A stretch of 40,830 nt of DNA, taken from contig PFQB01000107.1 of NCBI GenBank assembly GCA_002793355.1, positions 1 through 40,830 of the forward strand, in the 5' to 3' direction. Position numbers and translations under genes: made by a program. This DNA is from Candidatus Dojkabacteria bacterium CG_4_10_14_0_2_um_filter_Dojkabacteria_WS6_41_15 (GTDB lineage: Bacteria; Patescibacteriota; Dojkabacteria; GCA-002793355). This document shows, piece after piece, positions 13,795-39,443 of the stretch (the stretch's first letter is position 1; every line of letters begins with the position of its first letter). The notes below the pieces were generated by a model, which did no database searches, was not told the DNA's origin, and saw only the letters and a list, made by a program, of their open reading frames with translations.

Positions 13795-13828
13795 ACCGTT
13801 ATTGCTAAGCTTTCTGTATTATACCTCA

Positions 13829-13857
13829 TTGACAAGCCAGTTGAAATACCGTAACCT
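13829..13857 (+). promoter_or_regulatory. sigma70-like promoter 7 nt upstream of the ATG at 13865
   Basis: TTGACA (13829-13834), 17 nt spacer, TAACCT (13852-13857), then gatacgt, then ATG. Confidence 0.5.
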
Positions 13858-13864
13858 GATACGT

Positions 13865-27243: not shown

Positions 27244-28566
27244 TTATCCCCCAAACAACCTCTCCGAAAACTCCAGCCCCTTCTTAATCAGTCTGATATC
27301 GTAATTTTCGTTAACTCCGTGCATGTTGCAGTCGTCGTTGGCGAGGGAAATCAAAACGGGATCAACACCAAAAACTCGTTTGATATCGATAACAATCGGC
27401 AACGTTGCACCACAGAAGTCGATAAGCACCTTGTCACCGTAAACTTCTTCCAATAAAGCAATTGCCTTTTTGTGCATCGACGAGGTAATGTCAACTTTTA
27501 TCGGTGCATTGTCGCTTTGCACGTCGACAATTTCGGCAGTTGCATAGTCAGGCGTATTTTCGACCAAGTATTGACGAATCATATTTTGCACAGTTTCAAC
27601 TGACTGATTTGCAGCAAGTCGTGTATTCAACTTTATGAACGCTGTTGCAGGCACGATATTCGAGTACCCACTGCCCGTGTAGCCTCCGTTAATTCCCGAC
27701 GGAACAATCATAGTAGTAAAGCCAACAACCTCGCAGAACGAGTTGTTTTTGCCCAAAAACCACTTCTTCACACCAGTCTGCTCTAGAGTCTTCATTTTGA
27801 CGCCATCCATATCTTTACAGAGCTGAAGCTCTTCAACAGTTGGGACTAGGTCCTTGTCATAAAAACCTTTAAGAACTAAGCGGTTGTTGTCGTCGTACAT
27901 TCGCGCGACCAGCTGCGAAGCCACGACCGTCGCGCTTGGAGCAGCACCACCATATAAACCAGAGTGCATGTTGTTTGCAGCAGTTGTCACTTTGACCGTG
28001 AGATTAAAGGTTCCTCTAAACGAGGCGGTAATAACGGGTTTATACGGCATTTCACCATCAGAGATTATGTATTGGTCGGCTTTGAACAATTCTGGGCGTT
28101 CCTCGAACAACTTCGAGATACCACCACCGCCGGTTTCTTCGTCACCTTCGACAACGAACACGATATTCTTAGTAAGTTTGCCTGCCTTGATTAACTCGAT
28201 AATACTCACCAAGTGAATCATAAATTGGCCTTTGTTATCAACAACTCCTCTACCCAACAACTTTCCGTCTTTTTCGGTCAACACAAAAGGATCAGCATCC
28301 CAACCATCTTCCTTGTTTGCGGGCTGCACATCATAATGGCCATAGACAAAAAACGTTTTTTTATCCGCCGAGACGGTGTATTTTGCAATCACAATTGGGT
28401 GACCATAGCCATCAACACGTTCAAATACGAAACCATTGTCGGTAAAATACTTTTTAAGCCATTCAACCGCACCCTCTATGCCAGATGCAAATGCCGGGTC
28501 GGTAGAAATACTTTGCTTAGAAACAAGTTCTGTAACTTGCTTCTTATATTCATCAAAATTATCCAT
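27244..28566 (-). CDS. M20/M25/M40 family metallopeptidase (dipeptidase / acyl-amino acid amidohydrolase type)
   Basis: Contains FFVYGHYDVQP, RGVVDNKGQ and FVVEGDEETGGGG motifs and a dimerisation-domain-sized insert. I preferred the ATG at 28566 (MDNFDEY); the longest ORF starts at TTG 28578. Confidence 0.85.
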   Translation of the reverse strand: MDNFDEYKKQVTELVSKQSISTDPAFASGIEGAVEWLKKYFTDNGFVFERVDGYGHPIVIAKYTVSADKKTFFVYGHYDVQPANKEDGWDADPFVLTEKDGKLLGRGVVDNKGQFMIHLVSIIELIKAGKLTKNIVFVVEGDEETGGGGISKLFEERPELFKADQYIISDGEMPYKPVITASFRGTFNLTVKVTTAANNMHSGLYGGAAPSATVVASQLVARMYDDNNRLVLKGFYDKDLVPTVEELQLCKDMDGVKMKTLEQTGVKKWFLGKNNSFCEVVGFTTMIVPSGINGGYTGSGYSNIVPATAFIKLNTRLAANQSVETVQNMIRQYLVENTPDYATAEIVDVQSDNAPIKVDITSSMHKKAIALLEEVYGDKVLIDFCGATLPIVIDIKRVFGVDPVLISLANDDCNMHGVNENYDIRLIKKGLEFSERLFGG

Positions 28567-28568
28567 CT

Positions 28569-30302
28569 TTATTTGCAATTAATTAAGTACCGTTCAGAAA
28601 TTTTACCATCTTTCACTAACTGAGTGGTAAAGTCATCTAGTCGTTGTGTAGAAATAAATTTATTTAGTGCATACATTGCCTTAAGCCATTCTTGCTTTGC
28701 ATGCAGAAACACCCGTGAAAAATCAACTGCTGGTTCCAGATTCGCCTGAGACAAGTTTGTATAATGTACGCTCTTGTCCCCTATGTCTTTGCCAAAAACG
28801 AAATTGCCACTTTCATCGAAATACAACATATGCGACTTATAACCTGAGCTGTTACCTTTTTCGATGGCAATCAATTTAATAATGAACCCTGCATGTACGA
28901 CCTCACCATTACGTTTAATCATTGATGCTTTTCTTACATGGCCGTGCAAAGGTTGCCCTTGTTGGTAAAAGAGGATCGATGGCACATAATTTTGCACAAC
29001 AATTCCTTGATAATCCACATTGCTTAGAAAACTTTGTAGTTCATCGCACGGCTTACGATGCACATGTTTTCCTCCAGTCGAGCACCAGCTTCCTTCTTTT
29101 ATGGTGACCCACTGCGTAAATCCATCGAATGAAGTCGGATGCGTATCGCGAGAAAACACGATGCTTTTGGGCCTTGCAATTAAAAATCCTTCTTGCTGTT
29201 CTTGTTGCTGCAACAGCTCAAAAAAGGCGGACTTAGCATTAAGCAAACTCGAAAGATACATCTTTTTGTGACTCTCATTTGCGACGTTATATTGCGACTT
29301 GTCAAAATGCTCCCAAAGATACGCGTATTGTTTGAAGTTTTCTGAGGCAGTTTCATGAGTAAGAAACACATTCTCACGCAAATCAATTCCTAACTTGCCG
29401 TTAATAAGTATATGCTTCTTTTCTGGAGTTGCGATTAACGTGGTGTTATTGCCTTCAAAATACACACGCGAGTGTGAACAAGAGTTTTTGACCGGATTTA
29501 GCAACATGCCGTAGATATCTCTATACTGCGTATTGCCATAAGGTGCGACCAGCGCTTTCAAAGGTATTTCGGAAAACAATCCTGTGTTCGCGTGCAAATC
29601 AGAAAGTACCGTAACAGCGATACCTTGTTTCTCTAAAGATTCGGCAATATAGTAACTCATATCAGACTCCCACTCAACGTCGTACGTCGTATAAGTTGGA
29701 CTTGCTACTCTTCCTAGGGTTGAAAGAAACGCCTCCATGTACTCGTATACTCGCATTACCACTTCTTTGGGAAAGAATGATATTCCTTGCCTTTTAACAA
29801 CTATCTCCTTAAATTTAGTTACCTTAAGAAGTTTGTAGCGTTTCCAGAGCTGGTTATAACACCACACAATGCCGTATTCACTAGCAAAAAGAATCTTCAG
29901 CCGACTAACGTAGTCTTTTGTATACAAAGACGTCAATAAAGGGCCCTTTATGCGCAGCTTGATACAGAATTCATCAACTACACGGTCTTCTGTTGCACCA
30001 ATTTGCTGTAAAGAGTTGATAATCACCGCTAAAAGCTCGAGTATTTCTTTTTCTGCAAGACTAGGAAAAGCAGCTTTTATGGCTTCCTTTACCGCGGACT
30101 TTGCTGAAATCGAAAGGTGAGTGTCATCAACTGCTATTTGATCCAAAATTGTTCTGAATACGAATGGAAAGCCACCAGCAGATAACGCGTTTGGATCAAT
30201 GAAACCTGTATCGTTACCTTGCGGATCCCATAAATACTCTATTTCGGCATGAGAAATAAAGCACTCCTGTAAGCTTCTGAGCTTTTTTTCAATGCTGTCC
30301 AT
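28569..30302 (-). CDS. large orphan protein (577 aa), C-terminal half possibly ATP-grasp-like
   Basis: No firm motif. The segment FLIARPKSIVFSRD...YQGIVVQNYVPS...HGHVRKASMIKRNGEVVHAGFIIKL resembles the strand pattern of ATP-grasp ligases. This is a weak, by-eye call. Confidence 0.3.
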   Translation of the reverse strand: MDSIEKKLRSLQECFISHAEIEYLWDPQGNDTGFIDPNALSAGGFPFVFRTILDQIAVDDTHLSISAKSAVKEAIKAAFPSLAEKEILELLAVIINSLQQIGATEDRVVDEFCIKLRIKGPLLTSLYTKDYVSRLKILFASEYGIVWCYNQLWKRYKLLKVTKFKEIVVKRQGISFFPKEVVMRVYEYMEAFLSTLGRVASPTYTTYDVEWESDMSYYIAESLEKQGIAVTVLSDLHANTGLFSEIPLKALVAPYGNTQYRDIYGMLLNPVKNSCSHSRVYFEGNNTTLIATPEKKHILINGKLGIDLRENVFLTHETASENFKQYAYLWEHFDKSQYNVANESHKKMYLSSLLNAKSAFFELLQQQEQQEGFLIARPKSIVFSRDTHPTSFDGFTQWVTIKEGSWCSTGGKHVHRKPCDELQSFLSNVDYQGIVVQNYVPSILFYQQGQPLHGHVRKASMIKRNGEVVHAGFIIKLIAIEKGNSSGYKSHMLYFDESGNFVFGKDIGDKSVHYTNLSQANLEPAVDFSRVFLHAKQEWLKAMYALNKFISTQRLDDFTTQLVKDGKISERYLINCK

Positions 30303-31152
30303 AAACGCGCTGTGCTGTTAATTTAACTATGGCATTCCAGTCACTTTGAATAAGTTCTTTTTTTAAATATGTTGCCACGTTTATTGATTCTTTATAGGTT
30401 CCTTTAATAGTACATACAGGCCAATCGGAGCCAAGCATAATTCGGTCTACACCGAATTTTTCTATAATAGTGTCGATACATGGTCTAAAGTCTTCTTTCT
30501 CGACAGTATTCTTAGATGATTCCGTCAAAAGCCCCGAGATTTTGCAGTAAACATTGGGATAACACGCCACCTTTGTGATATCTTTTCTCCACAACTCAAA
30601 GTCGCGACTTATTCCGTTTATCGCCGGTTTTCCCATATGGTCAAGCACGTAGTTTGGGGATTCATGCTCACTCAATTCTTGCAGCAAAGTATGGAACTGT
30701 CCAAATTGGTGTCTTTTAATCAGTACTTCATAGCTGAACTGATGCTTATTCAGTAATTTCATCGCTTGGATAAATTTAGGTTGGCACATAAAGTTTTCAT
30801 TCAACTCGTCTTGGACAAGATGCCTGAAAGCTACCAATTTTGTTTTGGAACTCGTTTGTTTGTACGCTATAAGCTCTTGTTCAACAAGGTCACCAAGTAC
30901 GTCTACCCAACCAACAACGCCTAAGACATCGTGGTTATTCTCTGCAATTGAACACAGAAACTGGGTTTCCTCTTTCAACTGCCTCGCTTGCACAAGAACG
31001 ACTTGTTCTACATCAGCTGATTCCTTTGCAACTAATAAATCGTCAAATAAAAAGTCTTGCGCCAGGGCATCTATATCTGGTGTTATCCACGGAAAATCCT
31101 TCCGATTATATCGCCACAAATGAACATGCGTATCAATAATGGTGCTATTCAT
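30289..31152 (-). CDS. Amidohydro_2 (PF04909) family metal-dependent hydrolase, lactonase/decarboxylase type
   Basis: Contains IIDTHVHLW, a DHMGKP-like motif and MLGSDWPVC motifs, as in L-fuconolactonase-type amidohydrolases. Confidence 0.8.
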   Translation of the reverse strand: MNSTIIDTHVHLWRYNRKDFPWITPDIDALAQDFLFDDLLVAKESADVEQVVLVQARQLKEETQFLCSIAENNHDVLGVVGWVDVLGDLVEQELIAYKQTSSKTKLVAFRHLVQDELNENFMCQPKFIQAMKLLNKHQFSYEVLIKRHQFGQFHTLLQELSEHESPNYVLDHMGKPAINGISRDFELWRKDITKVACYPNVYCKISGLLTESSKNTVEKEDFRPCIDTIIEKFGVDRIMLGSDWPVCTIKGTYKESINVATYLKKELIQSDWNAIVKLTAQRVYGQH

Positions 31153-31837
31153 GGTTACTCATTGACAATTCATGTGCCAACATGTACCTAAAGTTTCTCA
31201 TAAACGAAAGCAGTGGCTCTGCTTGTAGCTTTGCCGTTTTTGTGCTTAAAATATCGGCACAACTAATTTGATAACTAAGCTGTTCCATCAGGTCATGAGA
31301 ATTGTTCTCTCGCTTGCTTTTGCTTATCGTGTCATACCGTGCATTCTCAATTGTGGGCAAAATCTTGGCGACAGAGAATCCCAACTCTTTTTCCGGTCTT
31401 GCCGCTAATCCCCTCCAGATACCAACGGCGCCAAGTAAATCCAAAGTATCTGCATCAACCAAAACATCTAGAAGTTGAGATGGTCGAGGTGCTAATTTTT
31501 TGTGGTTGTGCCATGAAATAGCGTAGACAACTTCGGTGATTTCTTCTAGAGTCATCTCTTTACCTGCGATATCAAACAAAAAGCTCTGTGCCATCTGCGC
31601 GCCAACTTCGCCATGTGCCGGCCTTTCGCACAAGCCTAGTCCGATGTCATGCAACAAACCGGCAATTTCATAGAGTGATGGCTTTTCCAGACCTTCGCGT
31701 TCGGCAATACACATTGCAATATTCCCAACGCGAAATGCATGAGAATAATCGTGGGAAGTCTCTCTTCCCATGTTCTCTTTTACAAAATTTCGTATTCTTC
31801 TTTTTGTTACTGCTTTCATATTAATTTTTAGAGTCAT
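31145..31837 (-). CDS. HD domain metal-dependent phosphohydrolase
   Basis: Contains HDYSHAFRV....IA and AGLLHDIG (the H...HD...D pattern). Confidence 0.8.
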   Translation of the reverse strand: MTLKINMKAVTKRRIRNFVKENMGRETSHDYSHAFRVGNIAMCIAEREGLEKPSLYEIAGLLHDIGLGLCERPAHGEVGAQMAQSFLFDIAGKEMTLEEITEVVYAISWHNHKKLAPRPSQLLDVLVDADTLDLLGAVGIWRGLAARPEKELGFSVAKILPTIENARYDTISKSKRENNSHDLMEQLSYQISCADILSTKTAKLQAEPLLSFMRNFRYMLAHELSMSNHE

Positions 31838-32609
31838 CTAAGTGTGTATAGCCACCGTCGACAAAGAGTAGTTGTCCTGTCGTATGGCTACTCTTTTGCG
31901 ACAATAAAAACAATACATAATCCGCTATTTCTTCAGGCGTTGTTAGCCGTGTGCCAAGATTTATTTTCTTCAGAATCGCCGGTAGTCTACGTTCTCCCTC
32001 TTGTGTTTGCAACCAACTTGCATACTGCGGGGTATTAACCTCGGCTGGGATGACACAGTTAACGTCGACATTAAAAGGCGCAAGGTCAACTGCCCACTCT
32101 CGGGTTAATGCGTTAATAGCCCCCTTTGCAGCAGCATAACCTGACGTTCCTCCTTGTCCTGTAACTGCCACCTTTGACGATATATTGATGATAGAACCTT
32201 GCGCTTGTTTTATTCTTGCTACCAGCCCTTGTGTCATTTGAAAATAGTGAACTAAATTCTTGTGTAGTGAAGACATAAATGAAGCTACGTCTGAGTTCAG
32301 GCCAATACCATCATTAGCGCCAGCATTATTTACTAAACCGTAAATATCTGTATGATCCAAGTTCAACTCGCTCAGAACACGCTGTGTATCCAGCGGATCT
32401 GAAAGATCGCACAGGTAAGTTTCAATCATTTTTCTTTTAAATAGCGAACTATGCGCTTGAGCCAAAGATTGCAACCCTACTCTGCTTTTATCGATAACAA
32501 CAGGAATTGCACCTTCTTGAACAAGCCCATTAACTATTGCGGCACCGATGCCACTTGCACCTCCTGTTACAACAATTGTTTTATTTTTTAGATCAAGGTC
32601 CATATTCAT
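31821..32609 (-). CDS. short-chain dehydrogenase/reductase (classical SDR)
   Basis: Contains the cofactor motif VVTGGASGIGAAI, NNAG, and the catalytic S...YAAAKGA triad. Confidence 0.9.
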   Translation of the reverse strand: MNMDLDLKNKTIVVTGGASGIGAAIVNGLVQEGAIPVVIDKSRVGLQSLAQAHSSLFKRKMIETYLCDLSDPLDTQRVLSELNLDHTDIYGLVNNAGANDGIGLNSDVASFMSSLHKNLVHYFQMTQGLVARIKQAQGSIINISSKVAVTGQGGTSGYAAAKGAINALTREWAVDLAPFNVDVNCVIPAEVNTPQYASWLQTQEGERRLPAILKKINLGTRLTTPEEIADYVLFLLSQKSSHTTGQLLFVDGGYTHLDDSKN

Positions 32610-33223
32610 GGTACTAATTTACTCATAACTTGCTCTGCAACCTTTTTTGCTGGCTGCATAGTACTAACAAAGTCAATGGGAATACCGGTGCATTCAGCGA
32701 GAATGTGTCGCGTTAATTGCGTCTGGAAGTTAACAAAGTTGCTCTTGCACGAATCTGAATTTAGTGCTAATTCGTTTTTTTGCAGTTTCCTGATTTTTAT
32801 TACTCTTGAGTAAGCAACCTCTGGTGCTAGATTAAGAAATATAACCTTATCCGGTTTTCGAAGCGTTCTCCATATAGAAAGTACTCGAGCATCGCCCTTA
32901 TTTACCTGCTCTTTTGCAAGAAATTTATAGTAATAGGAATCACACAAGACATTCGATACTGACAATGCTTTTTCTACAACATCTTGCAAATACGCAACAA
33001 ACAAGTGATAGTACGCACTTCTAAACTCGGAACTAAAGGTTGTAAATTCGGGTATTGCTTCATCGCGCACCGTTTTAGCTATACTGTTTACTGCAGTATA
33101 ATTACTCGGCACGTGTTCCTGGCTGTAAGAAACAATTTTCCATCCTGCTTTGTTAATAAGTGATAGAGTTGTGGACTTTCCAACACCATCTCCACCTAGC
33201 AGTACAAACAATTTATACTTCAT
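32606..33223 (-). CDS. thymidylate kinase-like P-loop (d)NMP/nucleoside kinase
   Basis: Contains the P-loop LLGGDGVGKSTT, CDSYYYKF (compare the DRY region of Tmk) and PDKVIFLNLAPEVAYSRV. I preferred the ATG at 33223; the longest ORF starts at GTG 33235. Confidence 0.6.
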   Translation of the reverse strand: MKYKLFVLLGGDGVGKSTTLSLINKAGWKIVSYSQEHVPSNYTAVNSIAKTVRDEAIPEFTTFSSEFRSAYYHLFVAYLQDVVEKALSVSNVLCDSYYYKFLAKEQVNKGDARVLSIWRTLRKPDKVIFLNLAPEVAYSRVIKIRKLQKNELALNSDSCKSNFVNFQTQLTRHILAECTGIPIDFVSTMQPAKKVAEQVMSKLVP

Positions 33224-33860
33224 ACAGCTGCCCACTTACTTTATACGCTCCAGATGCAGAATCGAATAACACCCTTGTGTAGAGTGCCTTGTCTTTCTTG
33301 AATGGCCGTTTTTCATAATTTCTGAACTGGACATTAATACTGCTTAACGCATTCATTTTCCTATCGATAAGAGATTCATTAATAATGTGCGAAACATCAA
33401 CAAGAAGCTGTTCAACAGTGGAGCAGTCGTCCGCAAGGTCAACAGCATACTTTCTCCAGTGTCCAAAATACATATACCCATTTTTATTAATATTTTCGTC
33501 TTTAAACATAGGGCACATTGAGCGAAGTCCTTTAACGTACGCAGGAGTTAACAAACTGGTAATTCCAACATTTGCTTCTTGATATAGAAAAACATTCGGT
33601 GACTTTTGCATGACACGTTTAGGATTTCCTAGTAAAAAGTACATTTTTGTGAACGCAGCCTTCCAAAGTTGCTTCTCTTCTTCACCAAGGCGTTTATGCA
33701 ATTGAAGAAGAGAGCCTACATAGGTCTGGAAGTTAAATTCCGACATAACCGCAACCACTGCCATTTCTGGATTTGTTTCCTCGGATAAGACACCTGACGC
33801 TGCAGCGATTCGCACCTGCATAAGTTTTTCTAATTGTTTTTGTCTTGTATCGTTGTTCAT
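33213..33860 (-). CDS. orphan protein (215 aa), no recognisable motif
   Basis: An ORF embedded in the coupled operon. It has an ATGA overlap with the upstream gene and overlaps the downstream kinase gene. Confidence 0.55.
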   Translation of the reverse strand: MNNDTRQKQLEKLMQVRIAAASGVLSEETNPEMAVVAVMSEFNFQTYVGSLLQLHKRLGEEEKQLWKAAFTKMYFLLGNPKRVMQKSPNVFLYQEANVGITSLLTPAYVKGLRSMCPMFKDENINKNGYMYFGHWRKYAVDLADDCSTVEQLLVDVSHIINESLIDRKMNALSSINVQFRNYEKRPFKKDKALYTRVLFDSASGAYKVSGQLYEV

Positions 33861-35095
33861 AGAAATTTAACATTTGAATTAATCCGCGCTTTCGGTTTAA
33901 GTGTTCGATACCACACTTGCATGCTTGAAATCAATTCGGGGTTTTTTGACTGTTCTTCCAGGCTAGCAAGCTCAGTTACATCGCACGTACCATACTCTTC
34001 CTGAATTCGCACTGCTTTGTTTATACTTTTTTGCAGCTCATCGTAAGAAAAATTCAGAACTACTTTTTGGGAATTATAGACAAGTAAATACAAACGCAAC
34101 CCCAATGAAATGATTTCTGGTGTGTACCGAGGTTCGAATTGCCTCACAATATCCGTAAGCGTGTGCCCTTCCCATCCTCCTTTACGTGCGGACGCGACCT
34201 TACCTTGTATTGCAACTCTTGCTGTCGGCCTGCATATTACTGTACAACCTAATTTTTCCAGCACTCGACCAATTGTAAGAAAGTCAGAAGTACATTCAGG
34301 GTCAAATACCAATTCCATCATGTCTCCAGGATTGACTACCGGCACTAGTCGTCTGAGGGCAATAAACATATAGTTATACCCAAACACATTGGCAGAAGAT
34401 ATTTTTCTTAGCCGTAACCCGTAATTAGAAAAATCCAAATATATGTTTCCGTCGCTGGATCTTGCGTCTAGCACAACGTCAAGTTTTTTTAGTTCACGCA
34501 AAAGCTCTTCGTGCGTAATCAAAAACTTCTCCGGGGTGTACAATCCGGGGTCGTACATTCCTAATAACTTGTACTGACTCTTCCATTCTGGAAGAATGTA
34601 CTTATAATATTCGTGCCCAGCAAGAGACGACTCCAATTCTTGTCTTCTCGTTTGCATTCTTTCTTCGCTAATGCTGTAATTTCGGGAAGACATCTCAATG
34701 TATGCCTTCCCAACCGAAATTCCATCAGACAAGTCGCTGTTTTCTCTACCTCGAAGATATTCCCCAAGTTTAATAACCTGATTATCAACATCAAAAGCTA
34801 ATCGGTTATACAGATAATCCACATCAACATTGCATGCTTTACGCATTTTATACAAGAAGTCTACATACAATAAATGCCTAATATGGCTGGGATTCAACGG
34901 TTTCGTGGGATCAATTTGAACGGGGAAGAGAAAATATTTCATTTTTTGTTGAGTTAAATAATAAAAAACTTCCCTTTCGGGAGGTTTAACATTTTTATTT
35001 AGAGGTTTAGTTAATTCCCGAAAGTTGCTTTGTGGACGAAATAAATTGGAAGGGTTGCGAAAAGTTTGGTCCAACGCATAGGGGAAAGATGACAC
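33857..35095 (-). CDS. truncated class I aminoacyl-tRNA synthetase-like protein (ArgRS catalytic-core-like)
   Basis: KYFLFPVQIDPTKPLNPSHIRHLLYVDFLYKMRKACNVDVDYLY...FDVDNQVIKL parallels the ArgRS region (SxNPtgPlHvGHxR..iGD.l.R.l...G..V.reyY.ND.G.Qi). QGKVASARKGGWEGHTLTDIV parallels G-KMStRkG..v.L.DLl, and GLRLYLLVYNSQKVVLNFSYDEL parallels the RY.ll......i.F pattern. The N-terminal add-on domain and most of the DALR anticodon-binding domain are absent. It starts at GTG 35095, with an alternative ATG at 34942. Confidence 0.45.
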   Translation of the reverse strand: MSSFPYALDQTFRNPSNLFRPQSNFRELTKPLNKNVKPPEREVFYYLTQQKMKYFLFPVQIDPTKPLNPSHIRHLLYVDFLYKMRKACNVDVDYLYNRLAFDVDNQVIKLGEYLRGRENSDLSDGISVGKAYIEMSSRNYSISEERMQTRRQELESSLAGHEYYKYILPEWKSQYKLLGMYDPGLYTPEKFLITHEELLRELKKLDVVLDARSSDGNIYLDFSNYGLRLRKISSANVFGYNYMFIALRRLVPVVNPGDMMELVFDPECTSDFLTIGRVLEKLGCTVICRPTARVAIQGKVASARKGGWEGHTLTDIVRQFEPRYTPEIISLGLRLYLLVYNSQKVVLNFSYDELQKSINKAVRIQEEYGTCDVTELASLEEQSKNPELISSMQVWYRTLKPKARINSNVKFL

Positions 35096-35179
35096 CCGAC
35101 GCCTTGTACGGCCGTGTTAAAAAGCAATGCAATTGCTTCTAATAAATTTTTGGACACGGTTTGCGTCATGTTGAACAGA

Positions 35180-35208
35180 ATTTTACAGGAGTTGTATACG
35201 GGTGTCAA
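35180..35208 (-). promoter_or_regulatory. near-consensus sigma70 promoter of the eight-gene operon
   Basis: On the minus strand: TTGACA (35203-35208), 17 nt spacer, TAAAAT (35180-35185). The predicted leader to the GTG at 35095 is about 78 nt. Confidence 0.6.
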
Positions 35209-35311: not shown

Positions 35312-35890
35312 TCACAGTTTCACTACCCACTCGACCACCTTTGCCAATACGGTAGTTTTCGAATCAGGTACGTATTGCTCAACACTAACCAAACCGTTGC
35401 GGGCGACTAGCACCACCGCGTGTTCGGAAAGGTCGCCCAAAGCCAGCGTGCAAATAAGGATTCCGCGAGGCAATAAATTTCCTGTCGCTACTCGTAGCTT
35501 CGAATCCGCACCCAAACGAACACCGAATTTCTCTACACCATTCTCATTGTCGTATATTTTCGAACCGCTTTCGGTAGCAGATAGAATACTTATCAGCTCT
35601 GAACTTGTTGCTGGAACTACATCAATAACAGGCACAAATCGCGAGGACAAATATTCCGTACTTGCGTCTTTAAAACTGGGAAACGACGAAGCGGCACCGA
35701 AGAACTTACTGACATCAAGATCTAGCGCGTCAGCTAAAAGCAATATCTTTTGCAACGAAGAAGATCTTCCTCGTTCATACCTGCTAATCATCTCCCATGT
35801 TACGCCAACTTTCTTTGCTAGTTCGGACTGAGACAACCTTTTCTTTTGTCGCTGTTCACGAATAGTTCTTCCAATTTCAATATCTGTCAT
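35312..35890 (-). CDS. XRE-family HTH regulator with C-terminal LexA/CI (S24)-like domain
   Basis: The N-terminal HTH reads IGRTIREQRQKKRLSQSELAKKVGVTWEMISRYERGRSS. The C-terminal beta-rich region has GADS at the position of the S24 nucleophile, but no obvious catalytic Lys. Confidence 0.75.
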   Translation of the reverse strand: MTDIEIGRTIREQRQKKRLSQSELAKKVGVTWEMISRYERGRSSSLQKILLLADALDLDVSKFFGAASSFPSFKDASTEYLSSRFVPVIDVVPATSSELISILSATESGSKIYDNENGVEKFGVRLGADSKLRVATGNLLPRGILICTLALGDLSEHAVVLVARNGLVSVEQYVPDSKTTVLAKVVEWVVKL

Positions 35891-35993: not shown

Positions 35994-36194
35994 ATGACAC
36001 CAAAGTCTATATCAATACGACATGAAATTTATTTCAAATTGCTTGCAACACTAGACCTGCTATGGACAGACAATTTTGAACACGAGCAAGCTCTTAATCA
36101 ACAAACACTTGACACCATCGAAAGATTAACCCGACTTACGGAACAATTGGTGTTGTTGGCGCAACGACATTTACTCGAACGTCAATCCGACTAA
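35994..36194 (+). CDS. small helical protein (66 aa) divergent from the XRE gene
   Basis: The ORF shows the same -10/ATG geometry as other genes in the window. It overlaps the 3' end of the convergent 684-aa gene by 59 nt. No motif was recognised. Confidence 0.35.
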   Translation: MTPKSISIRHEIYFKLLATLDLLWTDNFEHEQALNQQTLDTIERLTRLTEQLVLLAQRHLLERQSD

Positions 36195-38190
36195 CCTCGC
36201 CGGGTACATACCGAGCCCAATCAGGTAGCCAGACAGGTGCGAATTTGACCTCCGGAGCCTTTTCTAAAGAAGGAAGTTTTGAAAGGTACTCCAACATTTC
36301 TGGCCATTTCTTACCGGTAACCTCATTCCTAATTTTATCGATATCTAGGCGAGAAGTAGCCAGACCGTTAGCGGTAAACTCGACAGTTACTTTATCATCC
36401 TTCGCAACGGTAACTTTATCTGCTTTCACCGACATTTTCTCGATCGAAACCCTAGATGCATCTGCAGCCGACAGATTCTTTTCTGCTTTGTATTTATTTA
36501 GCAACATTTGTTCGGCTAGTTGAGAAAGTGATACTGCATGATAGTACAGCGCCGTCGTCGTTGTAAACAGCGCGACAGAAGGTTCTTCGTCTGTTTCCTT
36601 CACTTCAGCACCTACCGCCGGGTTCGCCGTTGGTTTACCTTTAAGCGTTGTTACGACTGAGCTTTTAATAAACTCGTAGTTATTATCAAGATTCATATAC
36701 GAAAGATCTGACTCGGCTTCAGTACCTAATTGAGTTTGCAGGGCTTTAACGGCTTTATCCACATCTTTTTGGCCAACAACTACAAAGGTGCGTTTTGTGC
36801 CACCACTTAATGCAACACTATTCTGTCCAGAAAGCGTGGGAAAGCCCGATATGACAAATGGGTTATCAGCCGGCAAATTATACTCCTCACCAAATTCGGA
36901 GGCGGTAATAGTCATAGGTGCAGTCACGTCTACGACAACAGCAGCGCCGGTCACCACAAACTTCTTCCCACCCGAAGTTACCAAAGTGCCCACAGGAACT
37001 GTTTTGCTGGCCATATCACTATTGATAACCGTTATCGTACCCGTTGCTTTCGTTCCATCCGTCCCGCTTTCTGTCGCTTTAAAGGGAAGTGTTCCATTCT
37101 TCTCTACTTTCTCTTTGGTCATTTGAATCTCTTTGCGATTAATGTCAAAACCCGTGACTGCAGAAGTTGCAAGCACAGAATCCGTAATAGTTAAGGCGCT
37201 TGATTGCACTGCAATGGTAATATGCACTTTGGGAAAATAGTAGTAATAGGCAGAGAACATACCGGCTGCTGCAATAAGCGCACCAAAGAAAATAAACAGA
37301 ACGATTCGGCCAAAAATATTTGGCCTACCCTTTTTCGAAACTTTTGCAATTGAACTACCTACCTTCTTCGGAGTTACATCGGGATGAAAAGAATTAATCT
37401 CTTGTGGAGGAACTATCGTATTTGCGGTGCCAGTTGCAGCTTTTGGTCGCCCGAAAAAAGAAGTTTGCTTCTTTTGCTTCATCATTTTTGAGAAATCAAT
37501 GCCAGTCACATTCTGGCTGGCTAAATTCTCGAGTTTCGAGGGCTTTTCGCTGTTTTCATGCTCAGTAATTGGCTCTTTACTGTTACTCGGATTGGGGGCA
37601 GGGATTTCGGAGTTTTCGTAATTATCTCCAACCTGCTCTGGCTTTGTTGTTTCGGCAGAGTTCCCATGCTGTGGCATTTTAGTGCTTTCTTGCTTTACTG
37701 CGTTCGTGCTTTCACTTGCCTCTTCTTCGTTAATCACTTTTCCTCCTCCAGTAACGATTTCTGGGATTGGTAAATGATCTGGAACGGGCGTCATATATTC
37801 TACTTTCTTTTCGATATGATGCGGCAATTCCTTTTGAGAATTCATGCCGGCCAGTGTGTTTTTGTATTCGTCAAATTGCTGTACAACAGTTTGCCAAACA
37901 TCGCCAGTAACCGCGTCTTGCGAGGTTGAAGCAATGAAACCAGCCTTTTTAGCAAGCTCGTAGCCGATACCTTGCGGAACTACTAAGACCATACGCTTTC
38001 CTTTTTCAAGCGTCTTTTTGCGAAGCGCCTTCAACCCAATCGGACTGTTCGCCAAGTCGTTACCTTCGGGTAATACCAACATCACAAAGGCAGCATCAAC
38101 CTTGATAATTGCATCTAAAATCAAATTTATGTCATCATCGATTGTTACATTGATTTTCACTACTTTCTTGTCTGGTGTTGCGTCAATCAT
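36136..38190 (-). CDS. bitopic membrane protein (684 aa), co-transcribed with the FtsA-like gene
   Basis: A roughly 110-aa N-terminal cytoplasmic domain is followed by a low-complexity E/N/S/P-rich linker and a single TM helix (IVLFIFFGALIAAAGMFSAYYYYF). A large beta-rich ectodomain follows, and its ATGTITVIN...VPVGTLV pattern is reminiscent of baseplate-J-like annotations. Family assignment is uncertain. Confidence 0.6.
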   Translation of the reverse strand: MIDATPDKKVVKINVTIDDDINLILDAIIKVDAAFVMLVLPEGNDLANSPIGLKALRKKTLEKGKRMVLVVPQGIGYELAKKAGFIASTSQDAVTGDVWQTVVQQFDEYKNTLAGMNSQKELPHHIEKKVEYMTPVPDHLPIPEIVTGGGKVINEEEASESTNAVKQESTKMPQHGNSAETTKPEQVGDNYENSEIPAPNPSNSKEPITEHENSEKPSKLENLASQNVTGIDFSKMMKQKKQTSFFGRPKAATGTANTIVPPQEINSFHPDVTPKKVGSSIAKVSKKGRPNIFGRIVLFIFFGALIAAAGMFSAYYYYFPKVHITIAVQSSALTITDSVLATSAVTGFDINRKEIQMTKEKVEKNGTLPFKATESGTDGTKATGTITVINSDMASKTVPVGTLVTSGGKKFVVTGAAVVVDVTAPMTITASEFGEEYNLPADNPFVISGFPTLSGQNSVALSGGTKRTFVVVGQKDVDKAVKALQTQLGTEAESDLSYMNLDNNYEFIKSSVVTTLKGKPTANPAVGAEVKETDEEPSVALFTTTTALYYHAVSLSQLAEQMLLNKYKAEKNLSAADASRVSIEKMSVKADKVTVAKDDKVTVEFTANGLATSRLDIDKIRNEVTGKKWPEMLEYLSKLPSLEKAPEVKFAPVWLPDWARYVPGEVSRIDVRVNVVAPTTPIVP

Positions 38191-38192
38191 CG

Positions 38193-39443
38193 TTAATAAG
38201 TTCCCAAGTAATTAAGGTTTGGCTGGCGAATGACGTCCCAATAGAATTTCGCCAACGAAGCGGGTGTTACATCATACGGATGAATCAATAATCCGCTCTT
38301 ATCATATACCCGGTCAAGTTTATCTGGAGTAACTAGCAGAACCTTTGGCAAGCGCTTGAAGGGCAAGTGTTTGTGCCATGGATACGAAAGGATTGCCTCT
38401 TTGAGGTCAGGTAACATGGCACCACCACCACAAAGGAAGAACTGTGCAGGGAATTCTGGAACGTTTTCGAATTCTTCCATGGCAACAACCAAAGCGTCTA
38501 GCCACAGTTGCACATCTGGAGCAAGTAAACGTCGAACCTCGTCACGTAAATCTTGCGGTAATTCCCCCGTTGAATACTTGATCTTTCGCCCTTCGGCAAT
38601 ATTGTAACTAACGTCCATTGCTTGGGCTATTTTCTTGGTAAAAGCTCTACCCCCGAAGGCATACATTTGTGTTTGAATAGTGTCACCGTTTTGCACCAAT
38701 GCTACGTCTGTTGTGCCACCACCAATGTCAATAAAAATTCCAGAGAATTGCGAGTCCCAACTACCTGCAAACGAACGTGATACGGCGAACGGTTGCGTTA
38801 CAATCGATGCTATTTCTAGATCTAAGGCCTGCGAGATTTCACGTAATTTTGCTACATATGTCTTCGGCGCAAACGAAGCATACAAATTCAACACAATTTC
38901 CTCGGAGGCAAGCCCGACAACCGTATCGACCTTGAGGCCATCGGCAAACATACCCGTTACAGTAATCTGCAAAACTTCTACATTGTCTTCGGTGGTATCC
39001 AAACGCTTTGCTAATTCGCCCTTACCTTTGGTCAAAATGTCACTAATTACATTTTCAACGACCGAGTTTGCCTCTGGTTCAGTTATTTTGCGGTTTGCAT
39101 CACGCCCACGATCGTAAGAAACACGAATAGAGATGCCATTTACCAGTTCACCGGCCATTCCAAGTACCATCTTTGTGGGGACTTCGTCCGGATCCAGTTT
39201 CTCGACAAGTTTTTGCACACACAACCTGGCATTTTCCAATACAGTATCCTGATTCAGAATTACTCCGCTTCGCATTGCATGCGTTTGCTGCGTAACTTGA
39301 TACGAAGACCAAATATCGACACCAAGGTTTGACATCGAAAAAAGGAGCCCTTTCATGACTTCCGTTCCAATGTCGAGAGATAGCAAATACTTGCTTGTCG
39401 TTTTTGGCTTTTTGGCCCCTCCGAAAAGGGAGAATAGCTTCAT
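38193..39443 (-). CDS. ftsA: FtsA/PilM-family actin-like ATPase
   Basis: Contains the phosphate-1 motif LSLDIGTEVMKG and the phosphate-2 motif IFIDIGGGTTDVAL, plus AFGGRAFTKKIA. Size and domain order fit FtsA. The symbol is tentative. Confidence 0.65.
   Translation of the reverse strand: MKLFSLFGGAKKPKTTSKYLLSLDIGTEVMKGLLFSMSNLGVDIWSSYQVTQQTHAMRSGVILNQDTVLENARLCVQKLVEKLDPDEVPTKMVLGMAGELVNGISIRVSYDRGRDANRKITEPEANSVVENVISDILTKGKGELAKRLDTTEDNVEVLQITVTGMFADGLKVDTVVGLASEEIVLNLYASFAPKTYVAKLREISQALDLEIASIVTQPFAVSRSFAGSWDSQFSGIFIDIGGGTTDVALVQNGDTIQTQMYAFGGRAFTKKIAQAMDVSYNIAEGRKIKYSTGELPQDLRDEVRRLLAPDVQLWLDALVVAMEEFENVPEFPAQFFLCGGGAMLPDLKEAILSYPWHKHLPFKRLPKVLLVTPDKLDRVYDKSGLLIHPYDVTPASLAKFYWDVIRQPNLNYLGTY

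What the first reader, a model, noticed from the sequence alone, without database searches (positions are those of the whole stretch)
33857..35095. Stand-alone, truncated ArgRS-like catalytic core with a degenerate HIGH motif
- The protein aligns by eye with three landmark regions of class I ArgRS.
- The first is the strand-HIGH-helix region, here PTKPLNPSHIRH....D.L.KMRKA.NVDV.YLY, followed by FDVDNQVIKL in place of ND.G.QI.
- The second is the KMSKS-equivalent loop, here GKVASARKGGWEGHTLTDIV.
- The third is the following helix, RLYLL......VLNFSYDEL.
- At 412 aa it lacks the N-terminal Arg_tRNA_synt_N domain and nearly all of the DALR anticodon-binding domain.
- The HIGH tetrad is altered to SHIRH.
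- Known precedents for aaRS paralogues without tRNA-recognition modules are amino-acid ligases or tRNA-modifying enzymes, for example MshC (CysRS-like) and GluQRS/YadB (GluRS-like).
- So this may activate an amino acid for transfer to a non-tRNA acceptor made by the neighbouring enzymes.
Basis: partly seen in the sequence, partly recalled or inferred. Interest (0 to 1): 0.65.

Follow-up and report, generated by a model that had tools for sequence, protein, structure and literature searches.

The report
Unannotated stand-alone ArgRS-derived enzyme family
This gene encodes a shortened relative of arginyl-tRNA synthetase that keeps the ATP-handling core but has lost the arginine pocket and tRNA-binding domains; it belongs to an unannotated family always paired with a DUF6182 protein in small-molecule gene clusters.

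Summary
The minus-strand ORF at 33857-35095 is real and is a true, remote homologue of the ArgRS catalytic core. A 51-member family profile hits only ArgRS in the PDB (2zue E 2.7e-9, 1iq0 5.9e-8). A confident AF2 model (pLDDT 89) has ArgRS structures as its ten best Foldseek hits. Single-sequence Pfam and NCBIfam scans find nothing, and all 120 listed relatives are named "hypothetical".

- The true start is almost certainly M52 (ATG at 34942, 361 aa). The 51 upstream codons lie in a conserved non-coding leader that ends in a terminator hairpin.
- The HIGH equivalent is N68-P69-S70-H71, not SHIRH.

The Lys upstream of HIGH, the last HIGH His, and an MSTR-type S-x-R-x-G-G loop are conserved. All arginine-specific residues (E. 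coli D118, N123, D317, Q341) are replaced, mostly by hydrophobic residues.

The family is native-short (350-400 aa) and occurs in at least 122 mostly actinobacterial species and in CPR Dojkabacteria. It is adjacent to DUF6182 in 80 of 82 loci, usually with a thymidylate-kinase-like protein, often with GH3 or other amide ligases or AfsA, and is once fused to AfsA.

Most likely it is an ATP-dependent activating enzyme for a non-arginine, probably lipophilic, carboxylate in specialised metabolism. The substrate and chemistry are untested.

The parts
33857..34942 (-). ArgRS-like catalytic-core protein, probable true CDS (361 aa, start M52 of the 412-aa ORF)
   Evidence: Family profile against the PDB hits ArgRS only (2zue E 2.7e-9, 1iq0 5.9e-8). 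The AF2 model has pLDDT 89.1 and pTM 0.86. The Foldseek top 10 are all ArgRS. Orthologues start at this Met.
34943..35095 (-). In-frame 51-codon upstream extension of the listed ORF (GTG at 35095); most likely non-coding leader
Evidence: It is absent from the orthologues. The DNA alignment has gaps of 1, 2 and 7 nt.
34883..34909 (-). HIGH-region strand P63-T-K65-P-L-N68-P-S-H71 (412-aa numbering): Lys upstream of HIGH kept, HIGH degenerate to NPSH
   Evidence: Alignments to 2zue, 1iq0, 3fnr and E. coli ArgRS. In the family the Lys is K in 44/47 and the fourth HIGH position is H in 37/47.
34778..34792 (-). D102-V-D-N-Q106, equivalent of the ArgRS D-x-G-x-Q motif
   Evidence: Aligned to E. coli D161-W-G-T-Q165. 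Q is conserved in 47/51.
34172..34192 (-). KMSKS-equivalent loop S302-A-R304-K-G-G-W308 (ArgRS 'MSTR'-type)
   Evidence: Aligned to 2zue SGRKGTW, 1iq0 SGRKG and E. coli KTRAGG. In the family S is 44, R 46, G 44, G 45 and W 40 of about 50.
34943..35179 (-). Conserved structured leader RNA with terminator hairpin (34966-34987) and an upstream complementary CUUUCGGGA segment (possible antiterminator)
   Evidence: Conserved in three loci whose proteins are 43-60% identical. The terminator stem shows a compensatory change. No Rfam match.
35180..35208 (-). Sigma-70-like promoter (TTGACA, 17 nt, TAAAAT) of the operon
   Evidence: 11/12 match. Both hexamers are conserved in the Dojkabacteria locus.
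33213..33860 (-). DUF6182 protein, obligate partner; its start overlaps the ArgRS-like stop by 4 nt
   Evidence: Pfam PF19680 E 2.3e-12. Adjacent to or near the ArgRS-like gene in 80/82 loci. Joined to it in P0041 and P0072. No PDB relative.
32606..33235 (-). Thymidylate-kinase-fold P-loop kinase-like protein (third member of the trio)
   Evidence: Pfam Thymidylate_kin E 6.7e-7. Family profile against PDB TMPK E 1.9e-5. Present in 56/82 loci by tblastn, with a divergent copy also in type C.
31821..32609 (-). SDR dehydrogenase, L-fucose-dehydrogenase-like
   Evidence: NCBIfam NF052481, 335.7 bits, above the cut-off of 300.
31145..31837 (-). HD-domain phosphohydrolase
   Evidence: Pfam HD E 2.4e-12.
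30289..31152 (-). Amidohydro_2 protein, L-fucono-1,5-lactonase-like
   Evidence: Pfam E 1.7e-31. NCBIfam NF052480 gives 238 bits, below the cut-off of 400.
28569..30302 (-). 577-aa orphan protein of the CPR operon
   Evidence: No Pfam or PDB relative. Not GH3 and not AfsA by hhalign. Syntenic in the Dojkabacteria loci.
27244..28578 (-). M20 metallopeptidase/deacylase, last gene of the operon
   Evidence: Pfam Peptidase_M20 E 2.4e-27. Follows the trio directly in L002 and is also in L086, L088 and L090.
35312..35890 (-). XRE-family HTH regulator upstream, syntenic in CPR relatives
   Evidence: Pfam HTH_3 E 1.3e-12. Same position in L086 and L088.

Best explanation
Identity (shown, about 95% sure). 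The gene encodes a member of a previously unannotated family of stand-alone paralogues derived from the arginyl-tRNA synthetase catalytic core. It has no Add1 domain and no DALR anticodon-binding domain. It is not a housekeeping ArgRS.

Mechanism (inferred, about 45%; the confidence value refers to this part). The protein is an active ATP-dependent adenylate-forming enzyme.
- It uses the ArgRS-type nucleotide site: the Lys upstream of HIGH, the last His of HIGH, and the S-x-R-x-G-G loop.
- It activates the carboxylate of a substrate that is not arginine. The remodelled pocket is mostly hydrophobic, so the substrate is probably lipophilic or an otherwise non-basic acid.
- It passes the acyl group to a non-tRNA acceptor.
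- It works as an obligate pair with the DUF6182 protein, which is proposed to be the acceptor-binding or transferase partner.
- It usually works with a thymidylate-kinase-fold kinase, proposed to phosphorylate a phospho-intermediate or the acceptor.

This trio is a portable module plugged into different small-molecule pathways. In CPR Dojkabacteria it sits upstream of a sugar dehydrogenase, lactonase, HD phosphatase, 577-aa orphan and M20 deacylase set. In actinomycetes it sits inside clusters built around AfsA butenolide-phosphate synthases, GH3 or other amide ligases, carboxyl methyltransferases and P450s.
For: Homology and fold:
- The family profile against the PDB hits only ArgRS (2zue 2.7e-9, 1iq0 5.9e-8).
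- The AF2 model has pLDDT 89.1.
- The Foldseek top 10 are all ArgRS, followed by CysRS, MetRS and MshC.

Native short architecture:
- 123 representative clusters are mostly 350-400 aa.

Nucleotide-site conservation across 51 members:
- K126 equivalent is K in 44/47.
- H132 equivalent is H in 37/47.
- R134 equivalent is K/R in 46/49.
- The S-x-R-x-G-G-W loop is kept in at least 40/50.
- Such purifying selection on ATP-site elements argues for catalysis.

Arginine pocket lost:
- D118 becomes A/F/Y.
- N123 becomes T/S.
- D317 becomes a hydrophobic residue or Arg.
- Q341 becomes a hydrophobic residue.

Partners:
- DUF6182 is present in 80/82 loci, the P-loop protein in 56/82 and GH3 in 62/82.
- Natural fusions exist: ArgRS-like+AfsA (P0028) and ArgRS-like+DUF6182 (P0041, P0072).
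- The P-loop partner is TMPK-fold.

Carboxylate and amide theme of the neighbours:
- GH3, LCM carboxyl-MTase, GCS2, a DdaG-like AMP-binding ligase, M20, and SDR plus lactonase.

Modularity:
- L088 has the downstream genes without the trio, and L002 has the trio followed directly by M20.
Against: - No biochemical data exist. No substrate can be named.
- The first His and the Gly of HIGH are lost (T/N-P-S-H), which in canonical class I enzymes lowers activation rates. One subfamily even has Trp at the last His (6/51).
- Many clusters already contain another adenylating ligase (GH3, AMP-binding, GCS2), so a second carboxylate activator is not obviously needed.
- ArgRS itself needs tRNA for amino-acid activation, and this protein lacks the tRNA-binding domains.
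- Model coordinates could not be inspected, so the pocket description rests on alignment registers. Both plausible registers were checked.
- DUF6182 has no recognisable fold relative, so its assigned role is a guess.
Confidence: 0.45

Rival explanations
1. Nucleotidyl-transferase reading. The HUP/Rossmann core transfers AMP from ATP onto a phosphate or hydroxyl group of a phosphorylated intermediate, for example a butenolide phosphate or sugar-acid phosphate, and not onto a carboxylate. It would cooperate with the TMPK-like kinase and the HAD or HD phosphatases to build or remodel a phosphodiester or pyrophosphate linkage.
For: - The partner kinase is of the NMP-kinase fold, whose members phosphorylate phosphomonoesters.
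- AfsA partners make phosphorylated butenolides, and the related spt pathway needs a kinase that forms a pyrophosphate.
- HAD or HD phosphatases recur.
- PPDK/PEP-utilising enzymes flank type D loci.
- The family is fused to AfsA in P0028.
- The amino-acid main-chain binding residues are lost.
Against: - The closest relatives by sequence and fold are adenylate-forming aaRSs, not cytidylyl- or adenylyl-transferases.
- The ArgRS-type MSTR loop and Tyr313 equivalent are kept.
- Type C and several other loci lack any obvious phospho-intermediate logic.
Confidence: 0.2
2. Pseudoenzyme or scaffold. The ArgRS-like protein no longer catalyses chemistry. It acts as a ligand- or nucleotide-binding subunit that holds substrate for, or regulates, DUF6182 and its neighbours.
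For: - HIGH is degenerate: the first His and the Gly are lost, and the last His is W, T or S in about 20% of members.
- It always comes with DUF6182, and the two are sometimes joined in one polypeptide.
- Other adenylating ligases are already present in many clusters.
Against: - There is strong conservation of K (86%), the S-x-R-x-G-G-W loop (about 90%), D79, Q106 and Y132 across sequences only 15-30% identical.
- Class I enzymes with non-canonical HIGH variants are known to be active (established knowledge, for example the TIGN signature of TrpRS).
Confidence: 0.15
3. tRNA-dependent enzyme. The core still binds a tRNA acceptor end, or an aminoacyl-tRNA. Together with DUF6182 it modifies tRNA or transfers an aminoacyl group from tRNA to a small molecule, as GluQRS acts on tRNA without an anticodon-binding domain.
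For: - It is ArgRS-derived, and ArgRS chemistry is tRNA-dependent (PMC3956977).
- The region equivalent to the ArgRS second Rossmann half, which contacts the CCA end, is well conserved.
- GluQRS is a precedent (established knowledge).
Against: - Both ArgRS tRNA-recognition modules (Add1 and DALR) are missing.
- No tRNA gene or T-box is associated.
- The context is secondary-metabolite-like throughout.
Confidence: 0.1
4. Minimal housekeeping ArgRS of a reduced CPR genome.
For: - The window lineage (Dojkabacteria-like) has very small genomes (889 kb for CP129470.1).
- No canonical argS lies in the 40-kb window.
Against: - All arginine-binding residues are lost.
- No tRNA-binding domains are present.
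- The same family occurs in at least 122 species, mostly large-genome actinomycetes that certainly have argS.
- A closely syntenic relative lacks the gene altogether (L088).
- It is embedded in an accessory operon.
Confidence: 0.02

Closest known systems
Arginyl-tRNA synthetase (class Ia; Pfam tRNA-synt_1d; e.g. P. horikoshii 2zue, T. thermophilus 1iq0, E. coli 4oby)
   Same: - Rossmann catalytic core with the ArgRS-type insertions.
- Lys upstream of HIGH.
- Fourth HIGH His.
- D-x-x-x-Q motif.
- Tyr313 equivalent.
- MSTR-type S-x-R-x-G-G loop in place of KMSKS.
- First helices after the loop.
   Different: - No Add1 N-domain and no DALR anticodon-binding domain.
- HIGH reduced to (T/N)-P-S-H.
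- The arginine-binding residues D118, N123, D317 and Q341 are all replaced.
- 361 aa against about 550-630 aa.
- Located in accessory operons.
- Below Pfam detection.
MshC (CysRS-derived Cys:GlcN-Ins ligase of mycothiol synthesis; 8hfm)
   Same: - A class I aaRS paralogue that uses the adenylate-forming core to ligate onto a non-tRNA acceptor in a small-molecule pathway.
- It appears among the fold matches (E 6e-5).
- One relative locus even has a PIG-L deacetylase next to the gene, as in the MshB/MshC logic.
   Different: - MshC keeps its parent's amino-acid specificity (Cys), intact HIGH and KMSKS motifs, and most of the CysRS length.
- This family derives from ArgRS, has lost the parental substrate pocket, and needs a DUF6182 partner.
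GluQRS / YadB (GluRS-derived, lacks the anticodon-binding domain)
   Same: A truncated class I aaRS paralogue that consists essentially of the catalytic core.
   Different: - GluQRS still activates its parental amino acid and acts on a tRNA (queuosine of tRNA-Asp).
- Here the parental pocket is gone and nothing links the gene to tRNA.
Salinipostin-type (spt) and A-factor-type AfsA clusters
   Same: Many actinobacterial loci with this family carry AfsA (once fused to it), PPDK/PEP-utilising enzymes, a phosphate-directed kinase and phosphatases.
   Different: - The listed Pfam content of spt1, 2 and 4-9 has no aaRS-like, DUF6182 or TMPK-like gene; spt3 carries no Pfam entry in that list and was not examined.
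- The window's CPR operon has no AfsA.
- The link is contextual, not one of membership.

Membership tests
Canonical arginyl-tRNA synthetase (EC 6.1.1.19) | Class I Rossmann catalytic core most similar to ArgRS | tested here: met
   Profile against the PDB: only ArgRS is significant (2.7e-9, 5.9e-8). The Foldseek top 10 are all ArgRS, with TM by query up to 0.61.
Canonical arginyl-tRNA synthetase (EC 6.1.1.19) | N-terminal Add1 domain (Arg_tRNA_synt_N) recognising the tRNA D-loop | tested here: not met
   The protein starts 6 residues before the HIGH strand. The alignment to E. coli ArgRS begins at residue 125. No Pfam hit.
Canonical arginyl-tRNA synthetase (EC 6.1.1.19) | C-terminal DALR anticodon-binding domain | tested here: not met
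   Only about 60 ordered residues follow the KMSKS-like loop, then a low-confidence tail. E. coli has about 180. No DALR_1 hit.
Canonical arginyl-tRNA synthetase (EC 6.1.1.19) | Intact HIGH signature | tested here: not met
   NPSH in the window and (T/N)-P-(S/T)-H in the family. Only the fourth His is kept, in 37/47.
Canonical arginyl-tRNA synthetase (EC 6.1.1.19) | ArgRS-type replacement of KMSKS: Lys upstream of HIGH plus MSTR-like loop | tested here: met
   K is 44/47. S-x-R-x-G-G is at least 44/50.
Canonical arginyl-tRNA synthetase (EC 6.1.1.19) | Arginine-binding residues (E. coli D118, N123, Y313, D317, Q341; PMC3956977) | tested here: not met
   Only the Y313 equivalent is kept (39/51). 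D118, N123, D317 and Q341 are replaced in both possible registers.
Canonical arginyl-tRNA synthetase (EC 6.1.1.19) | Charges tRNA-Arg; sole or essential copy in the genome | not testable with these tools
No argS is in the window. The gene is absent from the syntenic relative L088.
Pfam tRNA-synt_1d / 1e / 1g | Score above the gathering threshold | tested here: not met
   The window protein has no hit at E up to 1. Across 51 members, 1 hit to 1d at E 0.071 and 1 hit to 1e at E 0.1.
Stand-alone aaRS-derived ligases (MshC / GluQRS kind) | aaRS catalytic core without the anticodon-binding module, encoded apart from the housekeeping gene | tested here: met
   Native length is 350-400 aa in 123 clusters. 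The genes sit in accessory operons.
Stand-alone aaRS-derived ligases (MshC / GluQRS kind) | Retains the parental amino-acid pocket and activates that amino acid with ATP | tested here: not met
   The pocket residues are replaced. Activation itself is not testable here.
ArgRS-like / DUF6182 module (proposed new family) | Adjacent DUF6182 gene | tested here: met
   In the window there is a 4-nt stop/start overlap. DUF6182 is present in 80/82 loci and also in L086, L089 and L090.
ArgRS-like / DUF6182 module (proposed new family) | TMPK-fold P-loop kinase in the same cluster | tested here: met
   Window 32606-33235. Present in 56/82 loci, with divergent copies elsewhere.

The most novel reading that the evidence does not exclude
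The ArgRS-like protein, DUF6182 and the TMPK-like kinase together form a new three-protein activation module. In this module an aaRS core was re-purposed away from any amino acid to adenylate or ligate a lipophilic or phosphorylated metabolite. In actinomycetes it would diversify AfsA-type butenolide hormones or related products. CPR bacteria would have acquired it for their own small-molecule chemistry, controlled by a new terminator/antiterminator leader RNA that may sense the pathway's metabolite.
Probability: 0.3. Interest if true: 0.8.

Novelty: new variant of a known kind. Interest (0 to 1): 0.62.

Why it matters
Paralogues of aminoacyl-tRNA synthetases that left translation (MshC, GluQRS, cyclodipeptide synthases, AsnA, HisZ and others) have repeatedly revealed new chemistry. 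To my knowledge, and in the literature searched here, no ArgRS-derived stand-alone family has been described.

- The family is invisible to Pfam and NCBIfam and is labelled hypothetical in all 120 listed database relatives.
- It is nevertheless present in at least 122 species, inside many actinomycete gene clusters, including AfsA-type signalling-molecule clusters.
- It gives the first functional handle on DUF6182.
- It flags a set of uncharacterised biosynthetic clusters for genome mining.
- It shows a CPR bacterium with a tiny genome investing in an eight-gene accessory pathway.
- If the enzyme activates a non-amino-acid substrate, that would be an unusual example of complete substrate-pocket replacement in an aaRS scaffold.

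Tried and rejected
1. Single-sequence scans of the target against Pfam, NCBIfam, PADLOC and PDB sequences gave nothing. Pfam across all 51 members gave only 1 marginal tRNA-synt_1d hit.
2. The first AF2 model, built from a 4-sequence alignment, was unusable (pLDDT 54). It was replaced by the 51-sequence model.
3. The 577-aa orphan as a cryptic GH3 was rejected: BLASTP found nothing and hhalign probability was about 0.
4. The 577-aa orphan as a cryptic AfsA was rejected. It also has no PDB or Pfam relative, so the earlier ATP-grasp suggestion found no sequence support.
5. DUF6182 against the PDB gave only a 20-residue chance-level match to mitoribosomal mL65. No consistent secondary Pfam signal was found.
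6. A riboswitch or T-box in the leader: no Rfam match.
7. Identity with the salinipostin spt cluster was rejected. The listed spt genes include no aaRS-like, DUF6182 or TMPK-like gene.
8. Literature searches for DUF6182, an ArgRS-like biosynthetic enzyme, or GH3+AfsA clusters found nothing relevant.
9. Housekeeping minimal ArgRS was rejected on pocket residues, domain loss, distribution, and absence from a syntenic relative.
10. The search for related loci with the full 51-sequence alignment failed because it had no conserved stretch. It was redone with an 18-sequence alignment.
Full report
**1. What is there**

The minus-strand ORF 33857-35095 (412 aa, GTG start) exists as described. It is the first gene of a run of eight co-directional genes with overlapping stops and starts:
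- ArgRS-like
- DUF6182
- thymidylate-kinase-like P-loop protein
- SDR (L-fucose-dehydrogenase-like)
- HD phosphohydrolase
- Amidohydro_2 (fuconolactonase-like)
- a 577-aa orphan
- M20 peptidase

An XRE regulator and a strong sigma-70-like promoter lie upstream.

**2. Is it ArgRS-like?**

Single-sequence searches say nothing. Pfam, NCBIfam, PADLOC and PDB sequences give no hit.

The word-indexed database of 5.8 billion proteins returned only four relatives. Even a profile of those four ranked two ArgRS structures first (2zue E 0.0027, 3fnr E 0.012).

An exhaustive profile search of 1.84 billion representatives found 123 clusters, mostly 350-400 aa long. A 51-member alignment of full-length members (A2) hits P. 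horikoshii ArgRS at E 2.7e-9 and T. thermophilus ArgRS at E 5.9e-8. Nothing else is significant.

AlphaFold2 with this alignment gives a confident model (pLDDT 89.1, pTM 0.86). Its ten best Foldseek matches in the PDB are all ArgRS (E from 3e-9 to 2e-7, TM by query up to 0.61), followed by CysRS, MetRS and MshC.

**3. Architecture and true start**

The alignment to E. coli ArgRS spans its residues 125-398. There is no Add1 domain. Only about 60 ordered residues follow the KMSKS-like loop, so the DALR domain is essentially absent.

The short length is native to the family.

The annotated GTG start is probably wrong, for these reasons:
- Orthologues begin at the equivalent of M52 (L002 MKHILFPV; Dojkabacteria MKTYLVPV, 43% identical over 347 residues).
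- Many family members start at that profile position.
- The 51 extra residues were modelled as disordered.
- The corresponding DNA aligns between three loci with gaps of 1, 2 and 7 nt. It carries a conserved hairpin plus U-run (34966-34987) with a compensatory stem change.

The CDS is best taken as 33857-34942 (361 aa), preceded by a structured leader of about 240 nt.

**4. Active site**

I used the experimentally defined residues of E. coli ArgRS (PMC3956977) and the E. coli sequence fetched from the annotated genome. I counted residues at equivalent columns in the 51-member alignment.

Retained:

| E. coli ArgRS position | State in the family |
|---|---|
| K126 (Lys upstream of HIGH) | K in 44/47 |
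| H132 (fourth HIGH residue) | H in 37/47, W in 6 |
| R134 | K/R in 46/49 |
| Asp of IIGD | 49/51 |
| Q165 (Gln of DxGxQ) | 47/51 |
| Y313 equivalent | Y in 39/51, F in 6 |
| ArgRS-type MSTR loop, as S-x-R-x-G-G-W | 40-46 of about 50 |

In ArgRSs lacking KMSK, the upstream Lys is known to supply the missing lysine function. That is established knowledge; I could not retrieve the primary paper in the library.

Lost:

| E. coli ArgRS position | Replacement in the family |
|---|---|
| H129 (HIGH position 1) | T/N |
| G131 (HIGH position 3) | S/T |
| D118 | A/F/Y, no acidic residue |
| N123 | T/S |
| D317 | hydrophobic (HMMER register) or Arg (hhalign register) |
| Q341 | hydrophobic |

D118A and D317A each abolish arginine binding in E. 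coli ArgRS.

So the nucleotide-handling half of the site is under selection, while the arginine and alpha-amino-acid half has been rebuilt into a largely hydrophobic pocket.

**5. Distribution and annotation**

A scan of one genome per species found relatives in 122 species. They are overwhelmingly Actinomycetota (Streptomyces, Kitasatospora, Amycolatopsis, Nocardia, Frankia, Micromonospora, Actinoplanes and others), plus a few MAGs of other phyla.

The window's own lineage is CPR. The operon is syntenic with Ca. Dojkabacteria CP129470.1, a genome of 889 kb. The window protein itself was seen in two JGI metagenomes.

All 120 listed relatives are named hypothetical or uncharacterized and have no Pfam domain.

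**6. Context**

By tblastn across 82 loci, DUF6182 lies within 10 kb in 80, GH3 in 62 and the P-loop protein in 56.

Recurrent architectures:

| Type | Approx. loci | Gene order |
|---|---|---|
| A | 40 | two unknowns, AfsA, HAD, P-loop, GH3, LCM-type methyltransferase, FAD oxidoreductase, ArgRS-like, DUF6182, then hydrolase, methyltransferase, CMD, P450 |
| D | 12 | PPDK/PEP-utiliser, membrane protein, P-loop, DUF6182, 291-aa unknown, (P450), ArgRS-like, AfsA, KAS III, KS, HAD, PEP-utiliser, PPDK_N |
| C | 15 | methyltransferase, TrpE, TrpG, TrpD, TrpC, class II DAHP synthase, ArgRS-like, DUF6182, GH3, HMG-CoA-reductase-like, divergent TMPK-like |
| E | 2 seen | ArgRS-like, DUF6182, P-loop, LCM methyltransferase |

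Further observations:
- One locus lies next to NRPS and Dpg genes.
- A non-actinobacterial locus has PIG-L, ArgRS-like, DUF6182, TMPK-like, GCS2, a C26 peptidase, a DdaG-like AMP-binding ligase and two M20 genes.
- The divergent "PAW" subfamily again has DUF6182 adjacent.
- Natural fusions join ArgRS-like to a double-hotdog AfsA (P0028) and to DUF6182 (P0041, P0072). The latter two could be gene-call merges.
- In CPR relatives the trio is separable. L088 keeps XRE, SDR, HD, Amidohydro_2, the 571-aa protein and M20 but lacks the trio. L002 has the trio followed directly by M20.
- The P-loop partner is of the thymidylate-kinase fold.
- DUF6182 has no detectable solved relative.

**7. Mechanism**

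Shown: homology, fold, domain losses, residue conservation pattern, obligate DUF6182 partnership, modular occurrence.

Inferred: the conserved ArgRS-type ATP site implies a working adenylate-forming or nucleotidyl-transfer enzyme. The hydrophobic rebuilt pocket and the loss of the alpha-amino and alpha-carboxylate ligands imply a substrate other than arginine, and possibly not an amino acid.

The neighbours revolve around carboxylates, amides and phosphoesters: GH3, GCS2, DdaG-like ligases, carboxyl methyltransferase, M20 deacylase, dehydrogenase plus lactonase giving an aldonic acid, AfsA butenolide phosphates, and HAD/HD phosphatases.

I therefore favour (about 45%) an ATP-dependent carboxylate-activating ligase that hands its acyl group to a non-tRNA acceptor with DUF6182, with the kinase acting on a phospho-intermediate.

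Rivals:
- AMP transfer to a phosphate or hydroxyl group (20%)
- a non-catalytic binding subunit (15%)
- a tRNA-dependent activity (10%)
- a minimal housekeeping ArgRS (2%)

**8. Comparison and novelty**

It works like the known aaRS-derived stand-alone ligases (MshC, GluQRS). It differs in its parent (ArgRS), in having discarded the parental substrate pocket, and in its obligate DUF6182 partner.

It fails most defining features of ArgRS membership and is below threshold for the Pfam ArgRS family.

Literature searches found no description of it, of DUF6182, or of such clusters. The salinipostin spt cluster shares some accessory themes but has no such gene among those with a listed Pfam.

I rate it a new variant of a known kind.

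**9. Limits**

- No experiment was possible.
- Model coordinates could not be inspected.
- Gene calls in high-GC loci were made with a simple GC3 heuristic and checked by Pfam or tblastn only for the genes cited.

Noticed in passing
window 34943-35208 (minus strand); L002 862-1123; L087 3658-3934: A conserved leader of about 240 nt lies between the promoter and the ArgRS-like start. It ends in a terminator hairpin plus U-run (34966-34987). An upstream CUUUCGGGA(G) segment is complementary to the terminator's 5' arm, which gives a possible antiterminator. The leader is conserved across three CPR loci and shows a compensatory stem change. It has no Rfam match. It is a candidate new cis-regulatory RNA, but only three sequences are available.
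   Followed up: partly
window 28569-30302 (minus strand): The 577-aa orphan protein has strongly conserved motifs (for example GGWCSTGGK and HGHVRK) and about 12 relatives, mostly CPR. It has no Pfam or PDB relative. It is not GH3 or AfsA by profile comparison. It stays with SDR, HD, Amidohydro_2 and M20 even where the ArgRS-like trio is absent (L088).
   Followed up: partly
window 30289-32609 (minus strand): The SDR scores above the NCBIfam cut-off for L-fucose dehydrogenase. The Amidohydro_2 protein resembles L-fucono-1,5-lactonase but scores below its cut-off. This pair would make a 6-deoxy-aldonic acid, which is unexpected in a CPR genome of under 1 Mb.
   Followed up: no
P0028 (712 aa, public protein found): A natural fusion of the ArgRS-like domain with a complete double-hotdog AfsA butenolide-phosphate synthase. 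This is a Rosetta-stone link between the two activities.
   Followed up: partly
L051 3117-16863 (Streptomyces levis): A cluster combining dedicated TrpE/G/D/C and class II DAHP synthase genes with ArgRS-like, DUF6182, GH3, an HMG-CoA-reductase-like 780-aa protein and a divergent TMPK-like kinase. It may encode an indole- or anthranilate-derived conjugate pathway.
   Followed up: no
window 36136-39443 (minus strand): An FtsA/PilM-like ATPase is followed by a 684-aa protein with no Pfam hit here. Its L088 counterpart shows a weak Baseplate_J hit. The pair is syntenic with RNase J and the operon in CPR relatives.
   Followed up: no
window 13778-16126 (plus strand): A 782-aa PPDK_N plus PEP-utiliser protein is 25% identical to the Spt1-like 896-aa enzyme that flanks type D ArgRS-like clusters in Micromonospora. 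It lies about 18 kb from the operon, so the link may be coincidental.
   Followed up: no
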